Shown here: positions 5,434 to 28,287 of the stretch, one piece after another
How positions within the stretch are numbered: position 1 is the first letter of the stretch
Layout of the letters: each line of letters starts with the position of its first letter
NCBI RefSeq assembly: GCF_001049895.1
Contig: NZ_CVPE01000006.1
Coordinates: forward strand, 176,441-208,440
DNA: 32,000 nucleotides
Direction: 5' to 3'
From: Rubeoparvulum massiliense
GTDB taxonomy: Bacteria; Bacillota; Bacilli; Rubeoparvulales; Rubeoparvulaceae
Translations under genes and position numbers: made by a program
Notes under the pieces: generated by a model
Databases searched by the model: none
What the model was told of the DNA's origin: nothing
The model's input: the letters and a program-made list of their open reading frames with translations, nothing else

Positions 5434-6555
5434 ATGACAGAGAAAGAGCGACAAATATTACAGATCATTAAGGAACAGCCTTTTTTATCACAGGCGGAGC
5501 TCGCTGAACGGTGTGGCTTATCACGGTCAGCTGTGGCAGGCTATATTTCACAATTGATGAAAAAGGGTGAGATTATTGGACGTGCCTATATTCTCCGTGA
5601 GCATGCTCCCATTACCTGCATCGGGGGCGCTAATGTGGACTGGAAGGCGCAGGCCCTCGATCCCTTTGAAATGTATACATCCAATCCAGGCAAGGTGGAT
5701 AAATCTACCGGCGGTGTGGCACGTAATATGGCGGAGAATTTAGCCCGCTTAGGGGTAGAGGTGCAGTTGGTTAGTATCGTCGGTCGTGATGAAGAAGGGG
5801 AATGGCTCCGTGAGCAAACAGCAGCCAATGGTGTGGATGTCCATGGCATTATTCAGTCCGTCACATCGCGGACAGGCAGTTACATGGCTGTCATCAATGG
5901 TGCAGGTGAGATGGTGACCGCCATTGCCGATATGGGAATTTATGATGAGCTGACACCGGATCAGCTCTCCCATCTTCAAGCGCGTCTTGCCAAGTCAGAC
6001 TGGCATGTGCTAGACACCAACATCCCTAAAGAGACCATTGAATCCCATATCAAGTTTGTGAAGGAGCGGGGAGGTAAGGTGGTCGTTGATCCTGTCTCCA
6101 ATGTGAAGGCCATGAAGCTGCGGGATACGCTTTCCCTCATCGATGTCTTTGTTCCTAATCGCTATGAAGCAGCGGCCTTAACTGGAATTGATACATCCAC
6201 GCTGGATGGCTGCATCGATGCAGTGCAGTATTTCCGCCAGCTGGGGGTAGAGCTGCCGATAATCACCATGGCGGAGCAAGGTGTGCTCTTTGCCAATTAC
6301 GATGGGATCTTCCAAGTGACATGTAACCCAGTGCCTGTAAAGGACGTAACGGGTGCAGGTGATGCCTTTGCCGCAGGCTTAATCTACGCACTTCATCAAG
6401 GTGAGGAAGACCTGATGGCGATCCAATGTGGCATGAATACGGCCAATATCACCATTCAATCCAGTCAGACCGTCGCCCCAGAGATGTCCTTGGATACCAT
6501 GCGGCGCGAGTTGAAGCAGACTGAGTTTCATGTGAAGCGCTTGTCTAAACGTTAA
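5434..6555 (+). CDS. psuK: Pseudouridine kinase (PfkB family) with an N-terminal winged-helix DNA-binding domain
   Basis: The N-terminus, MTEKERQILQIIKEQPFLSQAELAERCGLSRSAVAGYISQLMKKGEI, is a wHTH domain. It is followed by a PfkB ribokinase-like body (GGANVD...GGVARNMAENLARLG...DVTGAGDAFAAG). It lies directly upstream of psuG, the usual pairing. GAGGTGG RBS. Confidence 0.85.
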   Translation: MTEKERQILQIIKEQPFLSQAELAERCGLSRSAVAGYISQLMKKGEIIGRAYILREHAPITCIGGANVDWKAQALDPFEMYTSNPGKVDKSTGGVARNMAENLARLGVEVQLVSIVGRDEEGEWLREQTAANGVDVHGIIQSVTSRTGSYMAVINGAGEMVTAIADMGIYDELTPDQLSHLQARLAKSDWHVLDTNIPKETIESHIKFVKERGGKVVVDPVSNVKAMKLRDTLSLIDVFVPNRYEAAALTGIDTSTLDGCIDAVQYFRQLGVELPIITMAEQGVLFANYDGIFQVTCNPVPVKDVTGAGDAFAAGLIYALHQGEEDLMAIQCGMNTANITIQSSQTVAPEMSLDTMRRELKQTEFHVKRLSKR

Positions 6556-20176: not shown

Positions 20177-20981
20177 ACCAATTCGAATCGTTGTAGCAGG
20201 TGCCAAAGGACGGATGGGACAAGAATGGATACATTATATGGAGGGAGAACCCACATTCCAGCTGGTAGCTGCGGTGGATCGTACATTAGAGGGCGTTGAT
20301 GTAGGCAATGCCTTGGGAGGCTCATCCCAAGCGCCCTTCTATACCTCCCTTGCAGAAGCTATCGAAAAGGAAAGACCCGATTGCTTAGTGGATTTCACAA
20401 CCCCAGAGGCAGGCTATCGTAATGCGCTTACGGCCATGGAGCATGGAATTCGTGCGGTCATTGGTACCACAGGCTTTAGTGAAGAGCAGCTCAAGCACTT
20501 GGAGGAGGAGCATGCCAAGCATCCTGCGGGAATGTTGATCGCTCCGAACTTTGCCATCGGTGCTGTATTGATGATGCAATTTTCAAAAATGGCTGCCCGT
20601 TTTCTACCAGATGTAGAGATAATCGAGATGCATCATAACCAAAAGCTAGATGCACCATCAGGTACAGCAAGAAAGACAGCAGCCATGATTCAAGAGGTGC
20701 GGCAGGCTCACCAGCAAGGTCATCCTAATGAATTGGAGCATATGGCCGGAGTTCGCGGTGGTGATATGGAAGGGATCCGTATCCATAGTGTCCGTCTGCC
20801 TGGTCTTGTAGCTCATCAAGAGGTAATCTTTGGCGGTGAGGGAGAGACCTTACATATTCGCCATGATTCCAATTCTCGCCGCTGCTTTATGCCAGGGGTT
20901 GCCTTGGGTATACGCTATGTAATGGAGCATCCCCAATATATCTATGGGTTGGAGCATATTCTGGGAGGGGAAATGGCATGA
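20169..20981 (+). CDS. dapB: 4-hydroxy-tetrahydrodipicolinate reductase
   Basis: [100 protein letters not shown]. Collinear with B. subtilis DapB. Confidence 0.95.
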
Positions 20982-21403
20982 ATATCGCCTTGATTGCCCA
21001 TGACCGCAAAAAAGATGAGATGGTCAACTTTGCCATTGCCTATGAGCCTCTGCTTCAAAAACAGACGCTCTATGCTACAGGAACCACAGGACTACGGATT
21101 ATGGAGCAGACCAAGCTCAAGGTGAATCGGAAAATGTCAGGCCCATTAGGAGGCGATCAGCAGATTGGCTCTATGGTGGCTCAGAATGAGCTGGATCTGG
21201 TGATTTTTTTCCGCGATCCATTAACAGCGCAGCCCCATGAACCGGATATTCTAGCCTTACTACGGCTATGTGATGTGTATGGCATCCCCCTTGCCACCAA
21301 TGTGGCCTCTGCAGAGATTATGATCCGTGCCTTGGATCGCGGTGAGCTCAATTGGCGTGAAGTGGTTCATAAGTATCGTAATGAGATGCTTGCTAAGGAG
21401 TAA
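20978..21403 (+). CDS. mgsA: Methylglyoxal synthase
   Basis: [74 protein letters not shown] overlap with dapB. Confidence 0.95.
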
Positions 21404-21470
21404 GCCATTCGACATGGCTCTCCAGAATGGAGCAGGAAGCAGGTAGAGATGATTGGAAGATAGAAAGGAA

Positions 21471-22175
21471 ATGGCTATGGAAGCATGGGAAAGCGTTGAT
21501 ATTGTAGCATTTGGTGCCCATCCTGATGATGTGGAAATTGGTTGTGCAGGCATCTTGCATCGCCATGTGCAGATGGGGAAGCGGGTCCTCATCTGCGATC
21601 TAACCAAGGCGGAGCTCTCGTCTAATGGGAACGTGGAGCTGCGCCAACAGGAGGCAGCGCATGCCGCTGAAATCATAGGGGCGAAGCGGATCAATCTCGG
21701 GATGGCTGATCGGGGGATCGTGGAGGATACAGACTCGATCCGTAAGGTGGTTGCTGTGCTACGGCGCTATCAGCCAAAGCTAGTACTGGCACCGTATTGG
21801 GAGGATCGTCACCCTGACCATATGGCTTGCTATCATTTGGTCTACCAGGCCATCTTCTCTGCAACCATTCGTAAATTTGTAGTGGATGATCTGCCACCCC
21901 ATCGAGTTAAACAATACTTTGCTTACTTTATCAATCAGATTACGACACCAAGCTGCCTCATGGATATCTCCCAACAATGGGAGACGAAGCGGGCAGCCTT
22001 ATTAGCTTATGGCTCACAGTTCTCTGCACAGCCCGGTACGGTAAGTACGCCGTTAAATGCTGGATACCTCGCTTCCCTCGAAGGACGGGAGCGCTATTTT
22101 GGCTCACAGCTGGGCGTTCAGTATGCCGAGGGCCTCGTTAGTAAAAATCCCCTCCAGCTCACCCAGCTGGTGTAA
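21471..22175 (+). CDS. bshB1: N-acetyl-alpha-D-glucosaminyl L-malate deacetylase (bacillithiol biosynthesis, LmbE/PIG-L family)
   Basis: VDIVAFGAHPDDVEIGCAG, ICDLTKAELSSNGNVELRQQEAAHAAEI, VLAPYWEDRHPDH, and the C-terminal YAEGLVSK. Collinear with B. subtilis YpjG. The ORF is open from TTG 21453; ATG 21471 or 21477 follows AAAGGAA. Confidence 0.92.
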   Translation: MAMEAWESVDIVAFGAHPDDVEIGCAGILHRHVQMGKRVLICDLTKAELSSNGNVELRQQEAAHAAEIIGAKRINLGMADRGIVEDTDSIRKVVAVLRRYQPKLVLAPYWEDRHPDHMACYHLVYQAIFSATIRKFVVDDLPPHRVKQYFAYFINQITTPSCLMDISQQWETKRAALLAYGSQFSAQPGTVSTPLNAGYLASLEGRERYFGSQLGVQYAEGLVSKNPLQLTQLV

Positions 22176-22183
22176 GGAGGCCC

Positions 22184-23326
22184 ATGATGAAGATTGGAAT
22201 CACGTGCTATCCTTCACTAGGTGGATCAGGGATTGTGGCTACGGAGTTAGGAAAATTTTTGGCGGAGCGGGGACATACGGTTCACTTCATTACATCAGGT
22301 GTACCATTTCGCCTCGGTACTTATATGCGGAATATCTATTATCATGAGGTGGAAGTGAATAGCTACTCCGTCTTTCGTTATCCTCCCTATGATCTAACGC
22401 TGGCCAGTCGGATGGCACAGGTGGCTCGTATGGCGGAGCTGGATCTTCTCCACGTTCATTATGCCGTTCCTCACGCTGTAAGTGCATATCTTGCGAAGTT
22501 GATGGTGGGAGACCACTTGAAGGTGGTTACCACCTTGCATGGGACAGATATTACTGTACTAGGGTATGACCCGACGCTTATTGATATAATCCGCTTTGGT
22601 ATTCAGCGGAGTGATTATGTGACTGCCGTCTCTGAAAGCTTGATTCAGGAGACGAAGCAATTGATCTGTCATGATCAAGAGATCGCTTGTATCTATAATT
22701 TTATCGATCCAGCGCAATATTATCGCCATGATGTAACTGCTCTTCGTCGTGAATATGTAAATTCGGAACAGAAACTGCTGGTTCACCTCTCTAATTTTCG
22801 CAAGGTGAAGCGTGCGCCTGACTGTGTTCGCATCTTGCAACAGGTTCGACAGCAGGTGGATGCGAAGCTACTCTTCATCGGAGAGGGGCCTGAATTGCCA
22901 GCGGTACAGCAATTAACCTTTGAACTGGGTCTACAGGATTATGTAATGTTTTTAGGGAAGCAGGAGGATATAACGCCCATGCTCTCTATGGCTGATCTCA
23001 TGCTGCTTCCTTCGGAGAAGGAGAGCTTCGGCCTTTCTGCCCTAGAAGCCATGGCATGTGGTGTGCCGGTTATCGCTTCCCGAGCAGGAGGTATCCCCGA
23101 GGTGGTGATCCATGGGGAAACAGGCTTCCTTGCACCCATTGGCGCTGTAGATCAGATGGCAGCTGATGCCTTGAAGCTTCTAAAGCATCCGATGCTATGG
23201 GCAGAGATGTCCCAGCATGCAGTCAATTGGGCGAAAACCCATTTTGCTGCGGAACGGATCGTAACACAATATGAGGAGATCTATCGTAAGGTCCTAGAGG
23301 GTGAAGGCCGGAGGGAAGGAGCCTAG
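22184..23326 (+). CDS. bshA: N-acetyl-alpha-D-glucosaminyl L-malate synthase (GT4 glycosyltransferase, bacillithiol biosynthesis)
   Basis: [42 protein letters not shown], and the C-terminal GT4 motif [38 protein letters not shown]. It follows bshB1, as in Bacilli. Confidence 0.93.
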
Positions 23327-23332
23327 ACTAGT

Positions 23333-25444
23333 ATGAAAGATGATGAATTTTTAATAAATGGCCAGGCCTTGCCTCCACTACTTGAAGTAGGCCGAGAACT
23401 TCTTCATGTACTGAACGAAGCAGGCTATGAGGCTTATTTTGTTGGCGGTGCAGTACGAGATTATTTGCTCCATCGGCCCATTCACGATGTGGATATTACA
23501 ACCAATGCCTTGCCCGATGAGGTGGTTCAGCTCTTTCCAGCCGTAATCCCAACAGGAATGGCTCATGGTACGGTGACGGTACGCTGGAAGGGCTTCTCCT
23601 TTGAAGTCACCACCTTCCGCACCGAGGGAGAGTACCTCGATCACCGACATCCTGCAGCGGTTCAATTCGTTCATTCCCTCACGGAGGATCTAGCCCGCCG
23701 TGACTTAACCATCAATGCCATGGCCATGGATGGGGAGGGGAAGCTATACGATCCCTATGGAGGGAGGGAGGATCTTCAGAATCGGCTGTTGCGAGCGGTA
23801 GGTGATCCTCAACAACGTTTTGCTGAGGATGCCCTGCGGATGATCCGTGTTTTCCGTTTTCAGTCACAGTACCAATTTCAGATTGAAGAGACCACGTTGC
23901 AGGGCATCAAGGCGGAAAGAGGTGGTCTTCCTCTAATTGCTGCAGAGCGGATCGCCGATGAGTTTTGCAAGCTTCTTCGTGGACCAGGGTTTCTCCATGC
24001 CCTTCAACTGCTCGCGCAATTTCTTGTGCTTCAGCATCCTCGCTTACCTATACTGGAAAAACTGGTGAAGCATCCACCTGCTCTGTTCTTGCAGAGACGG
24101 ATAGATTCCCTCCACTTCCTGGCTGAAGAGCCAATGGACCCACTGATTCTCCGGCTCTTATTACTTGGGCACATGGCCACGCTCAGTGAAGCAGAGTTTA
24201 GTAAATTGGGCTATGAGCTATTTTTGCCCCGCGAGACGCGAAGGCTTCTCACAAGCTCCTATGGCTTACTCAGTGAATGGATTGAAGAGAAGTATGCAGA
24301 GAATCACTGGAAGGCAGAATGGCTGGATCTGCCACAGGAATGCATCGCCTATACGTGGGCGGCCTATTGGATCTGTGGGAAGCTCAGCAAGGGAGAGCAA
24401 GAGATAGCTGAGCTTGGGGGTGCAAATCTTCATGAGCTCTATCAATCAGAACGTAGCCAGTGGCAACGTTTCTATGAGGAACTCCCCATCCGTCACTCCC
24501 AGGAATTGCAGCTCGATGGAAACCTGCTGCTGCAGTTGATTCCTGTAGCAGCAGGACCATGGATTGCGCGACGGCTAGAGCAACTGGTCTTGGCTGTTCA
24601 TATGGGGCATCTTAAGAATGATCGTGAGGAGCTATGCCACTTTCTGCAGCAGGGCTATGCCGAAGAACTGCAAATCCGTGAGCATCTTCATACTGAATGG
24701 CTAGGTCACCAACTCTATGTCCTACCTGTAGTGGATAGCACGCAACGGGAAGCACAACGACTGTGGAAAAAGGGTGGTGCTAATGGAACGGTGGTGGTAG
24801 CACAGCATCAAACTGCTGGTCGTGGTACGAGAGGACGAATCTGGCATTCGCCTCCACAATCAGGAGCTTGGTTTAGTATGCTCTTGCAGCTCCCCATCGA
24901 TCTTAAGAGGGCACCTATCATCACCCTCCTTACAGCGGTGGCACTTTATGAAACATTGCTCAACTGGTGTCAACCAGAACAGCTTCAGATTAAATGGCCC
25001 AATGATCTCCTTCTAGCAGGGAAGAAATGTGCAGGTATCTTAACAGAGCTACATCATCATGATGAGCATGGTGCTCAATTGGTCATCGGTGTTGGGGTCA
25101 ACCTGAACCAGGAGCACAATGACTTTCCAATGGAATTACAGGAGCACGCAACCTCCTTAGCTATGGGAACTGGCGAAAAGGTCCAACCTTCATTGCTGAT
25201 TGCCTTATTCTTAGCTAAAATGGAGGAATGGCTGGCCCTATATCAACAAGAAGGAAATTCGGCTGTGCTTCATGCATGGACAAGCTATGCTGGAATGATC
25301 GGTCAACGGGTCATGACACAGCTAGAAGGCAAGGATACCAATGTGATTATCCATGGCTTGGATGAGCAGGGTAGACTCCTTCTCCTTGATAAGCAGGGTA
25401 CTATTCACACTTTAGTTTCAGGGGAGATCAGACTCAATCCTTGA
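23333..25444 (+). CDS. cca/birA: Fusion protein: CCA-adding tRNA nucleotidyltransferase (residues 1 to ~442) joined in frame to the catalytic and C-terminal domains of biotin-[acetyl-CoA-carboxylase] ligase BirA (residues ~443-703); the BirA wHTH domain is absent
   Basis: Cca part: AYFVGGAVRDYLLHRPIHDVDITT, RRDLTINAMAMD, FAEDALRMIRVFRF, and the C-terminal GPWIARRLEQLVLAVHMGHLKNDREEL (B. subtilis has GKWVSEELQWIEQAVVTGKLSNQKKHI). BirA part: from A443 (nt 24659), AEELQIREHLHTEWLGHQLYVLPVVDSTQ...VVAQHQTAGRGTRGRIWHSPP..GAWFSMLL...IKWPNDLLLAGKKCAGILTE is collinear with B. subtilis BirA from about residue 68 onward. It is a single uninterrupted 703-codon ORF. Confidence 0.85.
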   Translation: MKDDEFLINGQALPPLLEVGRELLHVLNEAGYEAYFVGGAVRDYLLHRPIHDVDITTNALPDEVVQLFPAVIPTGMAHGTVTVRWKGFSFEVTTFRTEGEYLDHRHPAAVQFVHSLTEDLARRDLTINAMAMDGEGKLYDPYGGREDLQNRLLRAVGDPQQRFAEDALRMIRVFRFQSQYQFQIEETTLQGIKAERGGLPLIAAERIADEFCKLLRGPGFLHALQLLAQFLVLQHPRLPILEKLVKHPPALFLQRRIDSLHFLAEEPMDPLILRLLLLGHMATLSEAEFSKLGYELFLPRETRRLLTSSYGLLSEWIEEKYAENHWKAEWLDLPQECIAYTWAAYWICGKLSKGEQEIAELGGANLHELYQSERSQWQRFYEELPIRHSQELQLDGNLLLQLIPVAAGPWIARRLEQLVLAVHMGHLKNDREELCHFLQQGYAEELQIREHLHTEWLGHQLYVLPVVDSTQREAQRLWKKGGANGTVVVAQHQTAGRGTRGRIWHSPPQSGAWFSMLLQLPIDLKRAPIITLLTAVALYETLLNWCQPEQLQIKWPNDLLLAGKKCAGILTELHHHDEHGAQLVIGVGVNLNQEHNDFPMELQEHATSLAMGTGEKVQPSLLIALFLAKMEEWLALYQQEGNSAVLHAWTSYAGMIGQRVMTQLEGKDTNVIIHGLDEQGRLLLLDKQGTIHTLVSGEIRLNP

Positions 25445-25473: not shown

Positions 25474-28287
25474 ATGCAACATACATATGTCATAATCGAC
25501 TTAGAAACAACAGGTCATTCACCGAAGAATGGCGATTCCATACTGGAAATTGGGCTGGTGGTAATGAGAGGAGGAAAGGTGGAGTACACCTTCGAGTCCC
25601 TGGTGAATCCTCAAGGGGAGATCCCTTCTTATATTCAAACCTTAACTGGAATCACACCAGAGATGGTGCAAGGAGCACCACAGATAGAAGAGGTTCTACC
25701 TACTGTACTTAAAGCATTAGATCAAGGGATATTTGTGGCTCATCATGCCAGCTTCGATTGGACTTTTTTACAGGAAACCTTAGAAATCCATGGCTATTCG
25801 CCATTAACCAATCCCGTATTGGATACCGTTGAACTGGCCCGCACCTTCCTACCCACGCTCCCTTCTTACTCCCTGGGCTATCTAACAGAAACCTTGGGCA
25901 TCAGCCATCTTCAGCCCCATCGTGCCTTGTCTGATGCAGAGGCTACGGCGATTCTATTGCATCGCTTGCTTCAGCACCTGGAGGAGCTACCACTTCCCAT
26001 TATTCAACAACTCCAAGCGGTGGCACCCTATTTACAGAGTGATTGGCCGCTGCTTATCAATAATCAGCTTGTAAAGAAAGGGAACTGGCAGAGGTCTGAG
26101 CAGTTCAGGGAGCAATATGGGGAATATAGAGGGGTGATTTGGCGGCGTGCAGGGGAGGGCTCAGCCGCTTTAAGCAATGCTTCTTGGCAGGCCTCACAAG
26201 ATGTAGAGACTACCATTGGGTGCTACTTTGATCCAACGAAGCCCTACTCCTTCCCTGCGCAGATGCAAGGGTATGAGGTGCGTGAGCAACAGCAAGCTAT
26301 GATGGAAGCGGTACAGGCAGCTCTCAATCAGGGGAAGCATCTCCTTGTGGAAGCAGGTACAGGGATGGGGAAAACATTAGGCTATGCTCTGCCTTCCATC
26401 CTCTGGGCTTTACATGAAGGAAAAAGAGTAATCTGGAGCACACAGACGCTGCAATTGCAGGATCAAATCTTGTATCATGAGATCCCGCTGCTCCGACGTG
26501 TTCTACCTTATCCATTCCGCGTCACATTGCGTAAAGGAATTCAACAATATCTTTGTTTTGAGCAGTTCTTTCGGTGGATGGAGAATGAACCCTATACCTA
26601 TGATGAAGCGCTGGCACAGGCGCAGCTATTGATCTGGCTCTATTCCACGGAAACAGGGGATTTAAGTGAGTTGAATCTGCCTTCCCATGGGAAAACCTTG
26701 CTGCCTCAGCTTACTTGTACCTCATCAGATTGCCTCGGTGCATCATGTCCGTGGGCAGAGCACTGTTATTATCAAAGGGCGAAGCAGGATGCTCATCAAG
26801 CGCAGATCGTCATTGTGAATCATGCCTTGCTTGCCCAGGAATTACAACAGGAGGAGGGAATTCTTCCCTCCTACGAGGCATTGGTGATCGATGAGGCTCA
26901 TCAATTTGTCGAAACTCTAGCACAACACTGGACGGAAGAGGTTAGTACGGAGCTCGTCCATCCGTTAATGAATAAGATGATAAGCGGTAAGCTGTGGGAC
27001 TGGATTGCTTTTAGTACAGGGGCACCTACAAGCTGTGAGGAGTTTCGCCGCCTAGCTCTCCAATGGCTCAACATCTATCAGGATTGGGAGGAAGAGGTGC
27101 TCTCTCTGGATGGGAAGAGAGGGAAGCAGGAAGAATCCTCCTTCATCCGTTATGAACGGGAACAGTTTACAGAGGGGGAACCTTTATTACAGGCAACAGC
27201 CCGCCTCTATACCGCGTGGCAAGCGTTGAATCAGCATATGATGGAGACGTCTGCAGTAGGGGAAAGCCAGAAGCATCTAGAACGTTTATGGCGGGATTTT
27301 CAACAGTTTGCTTCAGCTTTACCCCAGTTGCTTATTGCAAATGAGGCTCAGCTAGAGAGGGATGCTGAAGGTGAAAATGAAGGGGAACCCTATCAATATT
27401 GGATCACTTATGAATCCCTATCCTCTCGCAGTTTCACCTTGCTTGCCATCCCAACCCATGTGGCGCAACAGCTGAATGAGCGCTTATTTAAGGTGAAGGA
27501 GTCGGTGATTCTCACATCAGCTACCTTAACGGTGAATGGTTCCTTCCAATATATTCGCCGATTATTAGGCTTACATGAGGAGAGTGACACCGAGCAGGTG
27601 CGAGAAGCAATTTTTCCGTCTCCTTATCAATACGACCAACAGATGAAAATTGTGGTTCCTGAGCAGATCCCCTTGTTGCATGGTGAGGGAGATGCCCAAT
27701 TTATTGAACATGTGGCCCAATCCCTCGCGCAGGTGGTGAAAGAAGCAGGTGGCGGCTGTCTCGTGCTATTCACAGCGAAGGAGATGCTTTTACGCATTCG
27801 TGAGCGATTGGTTGAGCTTTTAGAGGGAACACGGATTCAAGTGCTAGCGCAAGGCGTTGATTCTAATAACCGGACGCGACTAGCTCAGCGTTTTCAGGCA
27901 GAGGGAGCCAGTGTCCTACTAGGAACGGCAAGCTTCTGGGAAGGGGTCGATATTCCAGGTGATGCTTTGCGGCTCTTGGCCATCGTCCGCTTACCTTTTG
28001 TTCACCCTGAGGATCCCTATTATCGGACGCGGATTGTAAGCCTAGGGTTAAAGCCACAGGAAGGCTTTTTTCGCCTTGCCTTACCCCAAACCATTCTTCG
28101 CCTCCGGCAAGGCATGGGAAGATTGATCCGTTCTACCAAGGATCGGGGGATGGTGATCCTCTATGATCGGAGGATTATCACAGGTCGATATGGAAAACAG
28201 ATTCTCCGCGCCTTGCCAGGTGCACCATTTTATGAAGTATCACAAGAGGAGCTGATCCATGAGATTCAGACTTGGTTCCATGGCTAA
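25474..28287 (+). CDS. dinG: DinG-family protein: N-terminal DnaQ-like 3'-5' exonuclease fused to an SF2 (Rad3/XPD-like) ATP-dependent helicase
   Basis: Exo motifs YVIIDLETTG, VAHHASFDWTFL, HRALSDAEATA. Helicase motifs EAGTGMGKTLGYALP (Walker A), VIDEAHQF (DEAH), and the C-terminal FWEGVDIPG, RLRQGMGRLIR. Size and architecture match B. subtilis DinG (YpvA). Confidence 0.92.
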   Translation: MQHTYVIIDLETTGHSPKNGDSILEIGLVVMRGGKVEYTFESLVNPQGEIPSYIQTLTGITPEMVQGAPQIEEVLPTVLKALDQGIFVAHHASFDWTFLQETLEIHGYSPLTNPVLDTVELARTFLPTLPSYSLGYLTETLGISHLQPHRALSDAEATAILLHRLLQHLEELPLPIIQQLQAVAPYLQSDWPLLINNQLVKKGNWQRSEQFREQYGEYRGVIWRRAGEGSAALSNASWQASQDVETTIGCYFDPTKPYSFPAQMQGYEVREQQQAMMEAVQAALNQGKHLLVEAGTGMGKTLGYALPSILWALHEGKRVIWSTQTLQLQDQILYHEIPLLRRVLPYPFRVTLRKGIQQYLCFEQFFRWMENEPYTYDEALAQAQLLIWLYSTETGDLSELNLPSHGKTLLPQLTCTSSDCLGASCPWAEHCYYQRAKQDAHQAQIVIVNHALLAQELQQEEGILPSYEALVIDEAHQFVETLAQHWTEEVSTELVHPLMNKMISGKLWDWIAFSTGAPTSCEEFRRLALQWLNIYQDWEEEVLSLDGKRGKQEESSFIRYEREQFTEGEPLLQATARLYTAWQALNQHMMETSAVGESQKHLERLWRDFQQFASALPQLLIANEAQLERDAEGENEGEPYQYWITYESLSSRSFTLLAIPTHVAQQLNERLFKVKESVILTSATLTVNGSFQYIRRLLGLHEESDTEQVREAIFPSPYQYDQQMKIVVPEQIPLLHGEGDAQFIEHVAQSLAQVVKEAGGGCLVLFTAKEMLLRIRERLVELLEGTRIQVLAQGVDSNNRTRLAQRFQAEGASVLLGTASFWEGVDIPGDALRLLAIVRLPFVHPEDPYYRTRIVSLGLKPQEGFFRLALPQTILRLRQGMGRLIRSTKDRGMVILYDRRIITGRYGKQILRALPGAPFYEVSQEELIHEIQTWFHG

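What the first reader, a model, noticed from the sequence alone, without database searches (positions are those of the whole stretch)
23333..25444. Natural Cca-BirA fusion that precisely deletes the BirA DNA-binding domain
In B. subtilis and relatives, cca and birA are adjacent but separate genes. There BirA (~325 aa) carries an N-terminal winged-helix domain that makes it the biotin-operon repressor.

Here a single 703-codon ORF runs from the Cca start to the BirA stop. The Cca C-terminal helix (..LVLAVHMGHLKNDREELCHFLQQGY) joins directly at about nt 24659 to AEELQIREHLHTEWLGHQLYVLPVVDSTQ... This aligns with B. subtilis BirA from its inter-domain linker (SESEIRFGLKTEVMGQHLIYHDVLSSTQ) onward, so the ~65-aa wHTH domain is exactly missing. 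No SD/start codon is visible at the junction that could give a separate BirA.

Consequences to test:
- Biotin ligase would be physically tethered to a tRNA-maturation enzyme.
- Biotin-responsive repression cannot be exerted by this protein.

In addition, the panBCD genes that follow birA in B. subtilis are absent here, and dinG follows directly.
Basis: partly seen in the sequence, partly recalled or inferred. Interest (0 to 1): 0.65.

Follow-up and report, generated by a model that had tools for sequence, protein, structure and literature searches.

The report
Natural CCA-enzyme and biotin-ligase fusion protein
In the gut bacterium Rubeoparvulum massiliense the neighbouring genes for the tRNA CCA-adding enzyme and the biotin-attaching enzyme have merged into one 703-residue protein that lacks the biotin repressor's DNA-binding domain; the merger is real, rare and apparently undescribed, but is most likely two ordinary enzymes joined by a deletion.

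Summary
Window 23333..25444 (+) is one uninterrupted 703-codon ORF. It encodes a complete class II CCA-adding enzyme (residues 1 to about 442) joined directly to a biotin protein ligase (BPL) that starts at the BirA inter-domain linker, so the winged-helix (wHTH) repressor domain is missing.

It is not an assembly error. The same intact ORF occurs in four independent sequencing runs as two alleles (99.0-99.5% nt identity; 5 synonymous and 3 non-synonymous changes, no indel).

The organism is Rubeoparvulum massiliense mt6.
- The fusion is its only Cca-family gene and its only BPL.
- AccB is present, so the ligase is needed.
- bioB, panB and panC are absent and BioY is present, so there is no bio operon to repress.
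- All 67 tRNA genes encode CCA, so Cca is needed only for repair.

An exhaustive HMMER search of 1.84 billion representatives found three more wHTH-less Cca-BPL fusion clusters, all metagenomic. One sits at the same operon position. All 40 relatives searched and all 80 fetched genome loci have separate genes, usually overlapping.

Best reading: an in-place deletion in a vitamin-auxotrophic lineage made a bifunctional protein, with no demonstrated functional coupling. The scan had not seen this fusion before on other DNA.

The parts
20978..21403 (+). mgsA (methylglyoxal synthase), an upstream gene of the ypjD-type operon
   Evidence: Pfam MGS, E = 4e-15. Same position as in the B. subtilis ypjD operon (PMC5372718) and in locus L112.
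21453..22175 (+). bshB1-like PIG-L deacetylase
   Evidence: Pfam PIG-L, E = 8e-25.
22184..23326 (+). bshA-like GT4 glycosyltransferase. Its stop codon lies 6 nt before the fusion's start.
   Evidence: Pfam Glycos_transf_1 and Glyco_transf_4; ORF list.
23316..23321 (+). Shine-Dalgarno AAGGAG, 11 nt upstream of the fusion's ATG
   Evidence: Read directly from the sequence.
23333..25444 (+). Whole cca::BPL fusion ORF: 703 codons plus stop, predicted mass about 79 kDa
   Evidence: Intact in L016, L017 and L018 from independent runs.
23333..24658 (+). Cca half (residues 1-442): head, neck, body and tail of a class II CCA-adding enzyme. Motifs GGAVRD, DVDI, RRD and EDALRM are intact. It carries a low-confidence insert of about 45 aa at residues 324-370.
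   Evidence: NF009814 at 354 bits against a cut-off of 290. 1MIV alignment, E = 3.7e-68, reaching residue 394 of 404. AF2 pLDDT above 90 for residues 11-230 and 380-440.
24659..24712 (+). Junction (residues 443-460, AEELQIREHLHTEWLGHQ). The last Cca helix runs into what is the BirA inter-domain linker in relatives. The cca stop, the birA start and about 65-70 wHTH codons are missing here.
   Evidence: Junction alignment against 9 standalone cca+birA pairs. Full-length BirA profiles start at positions 68-71 of 320. E. coli BirA residue 78 equals fusion residue 458.
24671..25441 (+). Biotin protein ligase half (residues 447-703): catalytic domain plus the C-terminal SH3-like domain, group-I-like with no wHTH
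   Evidence: TIGR00121 at 195.5 bits. AF2 on a proper alignment gives pLDDT 91 and pTM 0.90. Foldseek TM 0.85 to S. aureus, M. tuberculosis and E. coli BPLs.
24818..24844 (+). Biotin-binding-loop motif GRGTRGRIW (residues 496-504). Thr499 occupies the position of E. coli BirA Arg118.
   Evidence: Among the distinct BPL domains in hand this column is R in 181, S in 11 and T in 5 rows.
24992..25006 (+). KWPND motif (residues 554-558) with the catalytic lysine
   Evidence: Invariant in the alignment of four fusions and in the alignment to E. coli BirA.
25474..28287 (+). dinG (exonuclease plus helicase), 29 nt after the fusion's stop. panBCD, which sits between birA and dinG in B. subtilis-type loci, is absent.
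   Evidence: Pfam RNase_T and Helicase_C_2. panB and panC are absent genome-wide.

Best explanation
The ORF encodes a genuine bifunctional polypeptide of about 79 kDa. Its N-terminal part is a complete CCA-adding (tRNA 3'-end repair) enzyme, and its C-terminal part is a catalytically complete biotin protein ligase of group-I type.

How it arose (inferred): in the conserved Bacilli operon ypjD-dapB-mgsA-bshB1-bshA-cca-birA, cca and birA are normally translationally coupled and often overlap. A deletion removed the cca stop codon, the birA start and the roughly 65-70 codons of the BirA wHTH repressor domain. This may have happened in one step, or in two steps via a wHTH-less birA.

Why it was tolerated (inferred):
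- The lineage had lost biotin synthesis (no bioB, uptake through BioY), so the repressor function was dispensable.
- Bacillus-type BirA keeps full ligase activity without its wHTH.
- All tRNA genes encode CCA, so Cca is only a repair enzyme.

How it works now (inferred): one translation start gives the two activities in 1:1 stoichiometry. The ligase biotinylates AccB, and the Cca module repairs tRNA 3' ends. No biotin-responsive transcriptional control is exerted by this protein.

Shown here: the ORF, the domain content, the missing wHTH, single-copy status, intactness across strains, the synteny and the existence of other such fusions.

Inferred only: both activities, the absence of processing, and the absence of functional coupling.
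For: - ORF and domains.
- The ligase half folds as a canonical BPL.
- Catalytic motifs of both halves are conserved in all four fusion lineages.
- It is the only BPL and the only PolyA_pol-family gene in a 97%-complete genome. AccB is present, so the ligase must work.
- Two alleles in four runs are intact, with 5 synonymous and 3 non-synonymous changes and none in the ligase half.
- bioB is absent. BioY is present with no palindromic operator upstream. No BirA wHTH exists elsewhere. panB and panC are absent.
- All 67 tRNA genes encode CCA.
- Relatives have separate genes, mostly overlapping by 4-43 nt.
- wHTH-less BPLs sit next to cca as separate genes in Aliicoccus (L034, 17-nt overlap, followed by dinG) and in G008.
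- A second fusion lineage (P0011) sits at the same operon position on at least 4 contigs.
- The P0012 lineage has five intact alleles.
- B. subtilis BirA delta2-63 and delta2-65 are fully active ligases (PMC4016012). The natural breakpoint lies close to these.
Against:
- The biotin-binding loop carries Thr instead of the strongly conserved Arg (E. coli R118). This could alter retention of biotinyl-AMP.
- The Cca half and all wHTH-less ligase halves sit on long branches. This could mean relaxed constraint or a changed function.
- The natural breakpoint falls between the fully active delta2-65 and the partly impaired delta2-74 B. subtilis constructs, and that mapping to B. subtilis numbering rests on my recollection of the sequence.
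- Occurrence in up to three or four lineages could indicate selection for the fusion rather than neutrality.
Confidence: 0.75

Rival explanations
1. The fusion is adaptive, and the two halves are functionally coupled. For example, the Cca module could take over the structural role that the wHTH wing plays in organising the biotin-binding loop. It could instead recruit the ligase to a particular place or partner. The altered loop (Thr499) could also give the tethered ligase changed specificity or leakiness.
For: - The same wHTH-less architecture occurs in four clusters at 33-41% identity.
- Junction linker lengths differ between the four clusters, and the fusions do not form one clade in either free tree. 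This is compatible with repeated origin.
- Three of the four fusions have Thr at the R118 position, against about 8% non-Arg among other BPLs.
- In E. coli the wHTH wing organises the active site (PMC4016012).
Against: - A single origin is not rejected (AU p = 0.16 and 0.30), so recurrence is unproven.
- Thr or Ser at that position also occurs in standalone BirAs (Terribacillus and a gut clade).
- Adjacent overlapping genes fuse easily, so recurrence can be mutational.
- BPL is fused to many unrelated partners in metagenomes, including QueH, HPPK and CoaX.
- The fusion is very rare: 4 clusters among 1.84 billion representatives, none in 40 relatives and none in 80 genome loci.
- No biochemical link between CCA addition and biotinylation is known.
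Confidence: 0.12
2. The long ORF is translated, but a free ligase is also or mainly produced, either by internal initiation near the junction or by proteolytic cleavage of the linker. Functionally there would then still be two proteins.
For: - The ancestral genes were translationally coupled.
- The junction keeps the flexible BirA inter-domain linker.
- AF2 confidence drops at residues 451-468 in the full-length model, although that model was compromised by the alignment.
Against: - None of the in-frame ATG, GTG or TTG codons between residues 380 and 480 has a Shine-Dalgarno.
- The only GAGGAG nearby lies 2 nt before an out-of-frame ATG that opens a frame of about 15 codons.
- There is no stop codon for Cca, so the full-length product must be made in any case.
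- There is no promoter-like site inside the ORF.
Confidence: 0.07
3. Artefact or decay: the merged frame is a sequencing or assembly error, or one half is an inactive remnant on its way to loss.
For: - The original genome is a MiSeq mate-pair draft (PMC5198730).
- Cca is dispensable in principle because all tRNA genes encode CCA.
- Both halves sit on long branches.
- One NCBI copy of the P0012 fusion is split into 217 + 458 aa.
Against: - The same intact ORF is found in Logan assemblies of four runs from two accession series, as two alleles without indels.
- It is the only BPL and the only Cca in the genome, and AccB is present.
- All catalytic motifs are intact.
- The Cca score is above the equivalog cut-off.
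- The split NCBI copy breaks inside Cca at about residue 218, not at the junction.
Confidence: 0.04

Closest known systems
B. subtilis cca and birA, the last genes of the ypjD-dapB-mgsA-bshB1-bshA-cca-birA operon (PMC5372718)
   Same: Same operon, same gene order and the same two enzyme families. The window keeps mgsA-bshB1-bshA upstream.
   Different: In B. subtilis they are two genes, and BirA is a group II ligase-repressor with a wHTH. B. subtilis makes biotin, and about 30% of its tRNA genes lack CCA. Here there is one ORF, no wHTH, no bioB, and all 67 tRNA genes encode CCA.
Engineered B. subtilis BirA delta2-63 and delta2-65 (Henke and Cronan 2014, PMC4016012)
   Same: The wHTH is removed at the domain boundary and a Bacillus-type ligase core is left, which was shown to keep full ligase activity. 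The natural breakpoint maps to about E. coli BirA residue 63-65.
   Different: The engineered proteins have a free N-terminus. Here the N-terminus is occupied by a 442-residue Cca. By my recollection of the B. subtilis sequence, the natural join is a few residues further in, at about residue 68. Activity is untested.
Group I biotin protein ligases, for example M. tuberculosis BPL (3RUX, 9DRN), P. horikoshii PH0147 (1WNL) and A. aeolicus (3EFS)
   Same: Catalytic domain plus C-terminal domain without a DNA-binding domain. Foldseek TM is 0.85 both ways to the M. tuberculosis enzyme.
   Different: Those are free-standing proteins of about 235-270 aa. By sequence the window's ligase is nearest to Bacilli group II BirAs (35-41% identity), so it is a secondarily truncated group II enzyme.
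G. stearothermophilus class II CCA-adding enzyme (PDB 1MIV)
   Same: Best solved relative of the N-terminal half (E = 3.7e-68). All head-domain motifs are identical or conserved, and the alignment runs to residue 394 of 404.
   Different: The window's enzyme has an insert of about 45 aa in the body (residues 324-370, low pLDDT) and a 260-aa ligase attached to the tail domain.
Other natural BPL fusions: BirA-CoaX (NCBIfam NF009862), FolK(HPPK)-BirA, BPL-QueH(PF02677) and Mtq2-BPL
   Same: A biotin ligase joined in one ORF to an unrelated enzyme, often a genomic neighbour (scan notes).
   Different: The partner is different, and here BPL is the C-terminal module that has lost its wHTH. NF009862 scores only 42.5 bits against a cut-off of 761. 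No paper in the held library mentions a Cca-BPL fusion.

Membership tests
Bacterial class II CCA-adding enzyme (NCBIfam NF009814 equivalog) | Score above the curated equivalog cut-off | tested here: met
   354 bits against a cut-off of 290.
Bacterial class II CCA-adding enzyme (NCBIfam NF009814 equivalog) | Head-domain catalytic motifs: GGxVRD, the DxD carboxylates, RRD and the EDxxR nucleotide-selection motif | tested here: met
   GGAVRD, DVDI, RRDLT and EDALRM align identically or conservatively to 1MIV and are invariant in the four fusions.
Bacterial class II CCA-adding enzyme (NCBIfam NF009814 equivalog) | Complete body and tail (the tRNA-binding part) up to the C-terminus | tested here: met
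   PF13735 is matched to position 148 of 149 at residue 437. 1MIV is matched to residue 394 of 404.
Bacterial class II CCA-adding enzyme (NCBIfam NF009814 equivalog) | Adds or repairs CCA on tRNA in vitro or in vivo | not testable with these tools
   This needs an enzyme assay or complementation of an E. coli cca mutant.
Group II BirA (bifunctional ligase and biotin-operon repressor) | N-terminal winged helix-turn-helix DNA-binding domain (HTH_11) | tested here: not met
   There is no HTH_11 hit in the protein. The BirA equivalog profiles align only from position 68-71 of 320 and score 94-151 bits against cut-offs of 293-489. The junction alignment shows the gap.
Group II BirA (bifunctional ligase and biotin-operon repressor) | Palindromic bioO-type operator in front of bio or bioY genes | tested here: not met
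   bioB is absent. There is no inverted repeat of 7 nt or more (6-nt seed) in the 370 nt upstream of bioY. This is a weak test.
Group I (monofunctional) biotin protein ligase | BPL catalytic domain with the GRGRxGRxW loop and the KWPND lysine | tested here: met
   PF03099 E = 3.5e-22 and TIGR00121 at 195.5 bits. KWPND is at residues 554-558. The loop reads GRGTRGRIW, with Thr in place of the fourth-position Arg.
Group I (monofunctional) biotin protein ligase | C-terminal SH3-like BPL_C domain and overall BPL fold | tested here: met
   PF02237 at 27.6 bits. AF2 pLDDT 91. TM 0.85 to solved BPLs.
Group I (monofunctional) biotin protein ligase | Free-standing protein without any N-terminal extension | tested here: not met
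   It is preceded in the same ORF by 442 residues of Cca.
Group I (monofunctional) biotin protein ligase | Biotinylates the cognate BCCP (AccB) | not testable with these tools
   AccB is present and this is the only BPL, so activity is inferred, not shown.
BirA-CoaX bifunctional ligase / type III pantothenate kinase (NF009862) | Score above cut-off and a CoaX domain | tested here: not met
   42.5 bits against a cut-off of 761, and no PF03309 domain.

The most novel reading that the evidence does not exclude
The Cca-BPL fusion arose independently two or three times and is kept by selection because the halves cooperate. The Cca module would replace the lost wHTH as the N-terminal organiser of the biotin-binding loop. 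That loop carries Thr at the E. coli R118 position in three of the four lineages. Alternatively the fusion might tether a somewhat leaky ligase to tRNA-handling complexes, which would make it a natural large-N-terminal-domain class of bacterial biotin ligase with altered specificity.
Probability: 0.1. Interest if true: 0.7.

Novelty: new variant of a known kind. Interest (0 to 1): 0.38.

Why it matters
It is a natural counterpart of the laboratory conversion of a Bacillus group II biotin ligase into a group I enzyme, at almost the same breakpoint and in a lineage that no longer makes biotin.

It shows how translationally coupled operon neighbours can merge during genome reduction.

It produces a bacterial biotin ligase with a 440-residue N-terminal domain, and a CCA-adding enzyme with a 260-residue appendage on its tRNA-binding tail.

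For annotation it matters because source names label such proteins by one half only.

For biology it offers a simple test of whether fusion of unrelated housekeeping enzymes is neutral or useful. The test is easy because both activities can be complemented in standard E. coli strains.

It does not open a long-standing question.

Tried and rejected
I substituted independent Logan assemblies.
- G019 looked like a second fusion because cca and birA were both reported with a 798-aa open frame. Direct reading shows TGA, a 55-nt spacer with GGAGG, and then a GTG start of a full-length birA. It is not a fusion.
- L116 showed an 820-aa open frame ahead of cca. This is a spurious open frame in a high-GC contig, and bshA is in another frame.
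- The search for homologous proteins with the four-fusion alignment returned only standalone Cca proteins. The metagenome scan with P0012 was swamped by the generic KWPND pattern and did not recover P0012. The genomic contexts of P0012 and P0013 therefore remain unknown.
- The genome-contig scan returned 80 loci, none with a single-ORF fusion.
- P0010 and P0060, which are long top hits, are Cca proteins with an internal duplication or a low-complexity insert. They are not fusions.
- Single versus multiple origin could not be decided. The free trees split the fusions, but AU tests do not reject one clade (p = 0.164 and 0.304).
- The first AF2 run on the full-length protein gave a low pLDDT for the ligase half. 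The cause was my alignment, because MAFFT placed the BirA rows against the Cca half. No inter-domain geometry can be taken from that model.
- I considered Thr499 (the R118 equivalent) as a fusion-specific signature, but it also occurs in standalone BirAs.
- I looked for a relocated wHTH or a stand-alone BirA N-terminal domain. The best tblastn hit (E = 4e-4, 2 of 23 queries) is an HTH_11 plus CBS regulator.
- BioQ- and BioR-type regulators were not searched, because TetR and GntR families cannot be assigned by family hits alone.
Full report
**Observation.** Window 23333..25444 (+) is one ORF of 703 codons with an ATG start, preceded by AAGGAG 11 nt upstream and 6 nt after the bshA stop.

Pfam and NCBIfam place a complete CCA-adding enzyme in residues 1 to about 442. 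PolyA_pol covers 34-154, the RNA-binding domain covers 182-235, and the tail domain is matched to profile position 148 of 149 at residue 437. The equivalog NF009814 scores 354 bits against a cut-off of 290.

A biotin protein ligase (BPL) occupies residues 447-703. PF03099, PF16917 and PF02237 all hit, and TIGR00121 scores 195.5 bits against a cut-off of 83.1.

Full-length BirA profiles align only from position about 68-71 of 320 and stay far below their cut-offs, and there is no HTH_11 hit. Alignment to E. coli BirA puts fusion residue 458 at BirA residue 78, so the join (Y442/A443, nt 24656-24661) corresponds to about BirA residue 63-65, the boundary between the wHTH and the linker. Alignment to G. 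stearothermophilus Cca (1MIV) reaches residue 394 of 404.

A junction alignment against nine standalone cca+birA pairs shows the last Cca helix running directly into the BirA linker. The 65-70 wHTH residues are absent.

**Not an artefact.** Instead I used the protein collection.

- The exact window protein (P0009) is encoded on Logan assemblies of SRR29904083 and SRR29904084.
- A three-residue variant (P0001) is encoded on assemblies of SRR33304997 and SRR33304998.
- The variant loci are 99.0-99.5% identical to the window. Within the ORF they differ by 5 synonymous and 3 non-synonymous substitutions and no indel.
- No in-frame ATG, GTG or TTG between residues 380 and 480 has a Shine-Dalgarno.
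- No promoter-like site lies inside the ORF.

**Organism and genomic background.** The genome held for the window has 2,843,796 bases in six contigs. This is exactly the size and contig number published for Rubeoparvulum massiliense mt6, a spore-forming gut isolate (PMC5198730). An earlier scan note gave the name as a lead.

All 40 nearest genomes share only the class with it. In this 97%-complete genome:

- The fusion is the only BPL and the only PolyA_pol-family gene.
- AccB is present, so a working ligase is required.
- bioB is absent and BioY is present.
- No inverted repeat lies upstream of bioY.
- No BirA-type wHTH is found elsewhere. The best hit is an HTH_11 plus CBS regulator.
- panB and panC are also absent.
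- All 67 tRNA genes end in an encoded CCA. This resembles E. coli and differs from B. subtilis, where about 30% lack it (PMC5372718).

So the repressor function had nothing left to regulate, and Cca is needed only for 3'-end repair.

**Distribution.** An exhaustive phmmer search of 1.84 billion cluster representatives put three further long proteins directly after the query. All three are Cca plus BPL without a wHTH: P0011 (730 aa), P0012 (677 aa) and P0013 (640 aa). They are 33-41% identical to the window protein, keep the catalytic motifs of both halves, and have linkers of different length.

- P0011 is encoded on at least four contigs from JGI, ENA and Logan, at the same operon position: mazG-dapB-mgsA-bshB1-bshA-fusion-panB-panC-panD.
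- The P0012 cluster holds five different intact 677-aa alleles (96.8-99.1% identical). One NCBI copy is split inside the Cca half at about residue 218, so its junction is still fused.
- All 40 relatives and all 80 genome loci fetched have separate genes. In most of them the ORFs overlap by 4-43 nt.
- Two lineages have a wHTH-less ligase of about 265 aa as a separate gene next to cca: G008, and an Aliicoccus MAG. In the Aliicoccus MAG it overlaps cca by 17 nt and is followed by dinG, as in the window.

Fusions scoring below the best standalone Cca proteins would not appear among the 150 listed hits. Four clusters is therefore a minimum.

**One origin or several.** P0011 and P0013 are sisters in both half-trees (support 99/98 in the ligase tree). 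The window protein and P0012 sit elsewhere on long branches. AU tests do not reject a single clade (p = 0.164 for the Cca half and 0.304 for the ligase half). The different linker lengths and the different downstream genes (panBCD kept in the P0011 locus, lost here) are compatible with separate events but do not prove them. All wHTH-less ligases have long terminal branches (2.2-4.0 against a median of 0.56).

**Structure.** A first full-length AF2 run gave high confidence for Cca but low confidence for the ligase. I traced this to my alignment, in which the BirA rows had been placed against the Cca half.

The ligase half on a proper alignment gives pLDDT 91 and pTM 0.90. Only the biotin-binding loop is soft. 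The model superposes on S. aureus, M. tuberculosis and E. coli ligases at TM about 0.85. No inter-domain geometry can be claimed.

**Mechanism.** The best-supported account is a deletion in place that removed the cca stop, the birA start and the wHTH codons. An alternative two-step route runs through a wHTH-less overlapping birA such as that of Aliicoccus.

The deletion happened in a lineage where the repressor was dispensable. It was tolerated because Bacillus-type BirA does not need its wHTH for ligase activity: B. subtilis BirA delta2-63 and delta2-65 are fully active, delta2-74 is partly impaired and delta1-81 is inactive (PMC4016012).

The product would supply both housekeeping activities from one start codon. 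Nothing found here links the two chemistries.

One point remains open. The biotin-binding loop reads GRGTRGRIW, with Thr at the position of E. coli Arg118. P0011 and P0013 also have Thr there. Among the distinct ligase domains in hand, the column is Arg in 181, Ser in 11 and Thr in 5 rows. The non-Arg rows include a standalone Terribacillus BirA and a gut clade. The variant is therefore unusual but not specific to fusions.

**Comparison and novelty.** The halves are members of known families: a class II CCA-adding enzyme, and a BPL that is group-I-like by architecture and group-II-derived by sequence. The combination is not covered by any curated model. The BirA-CoaX model scores 42.5 bits against a cut-off of 761.

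Sources name these proteins by one half only. The held literature contains no paper combining the terms for a Cca-BPL fusion.

BPL is fused to many other partners in metagenomes, including QueH/PF02677, HPPK, PF01887 and CoaX. Earlier scan notes describe FolK-BirA and Mtq2-BPL fusions, read as mergers of neighbours, but no Cca-BirA fusion.

I therefore class it as a new variant of a known kind. It is real, rare and undescribed, with an ordinary most-likely explanation.

Noticed in passing
whole genome G000 (contigs C1-C6): All 67 tRNA genes, including tRNA-SeC, carry an encoded 3'-CCA. B. subtilis differs, with about 30% lacking it. This makes the organism's only Cca a repair enzyme.
   Followed up: yes
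window 24818-24844 (residues 496-504): The biotin-binding loop reads GRGTRGRIW, with Thr at the E. coli BirA R118 position, the residue changed in the promiscuous BirA* used for BioID. Fusions P0011 and P0013 share it, but so do a standalone Terribacillus BirA (GKGTKGRSW) and a gut clade (GKGSRGRGW).
   Followed up: partly
L034:1562-3542 (Aliicoccus MAG) and L008 (G008): A wHTH-less ligase of about 265 aa sits as a separate gene directly after cca. In Aliicoccus it overlaps cca by 17 nt and is followed by dinG. G008 also has a second BPL hit elsewhere in a 340-aa open frame. These look like pre-fusion states.
   Followed up: partly
proteins P0280-P0377: Dozens of metagenomic clusters, mostly from ENA, join a BPL domain to PF02677 (QueH/DUF208, a tRNA queuosine-pathway enzyme). 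Others join it to HPPK (PF01288) or PF01887. BPL is a frequent fusion partner.
   Followed up: no
window 24302-24442 (residues 324-370 of the fusion): The Cca body holds an insert of about 45 residues that has no counterpart in other Cca proteins and is modelled with pLDDT about 43. One of the three amino-acid differences between strains (G363S) lies in it.
   Followed up: no
window 5434-6555 (+): A 373-aa protein joins an N-terminal winged-helix domain (HTH_24/HTH_11) to a PfkB-family sugar kinase.
   Followed up: no
G019:C12 (L014:1501-3879, minus strand): the genome search reported the same 798-aa open frame for cca and birA, although a TGA stop separates them. The two genes are in the same frame, so the open_frame_aa column can mislead.
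   Followed up: yes
proteins P0010 and P0060: P0010 is a 612-aa Cca with an exact internal repeat of about 180 residues of the head and neck. This could be a tandem duplication or an assembly artefact. P0060 is a 701-aa Cca with a low-complexity insert of about 400 residues.
   Followed up: no
whole genome G000: panB, panC and bioB are all absent while BioY is present. The organism appears to be auxotrophic for both pantothenate and biotin.
   Followed up: partly
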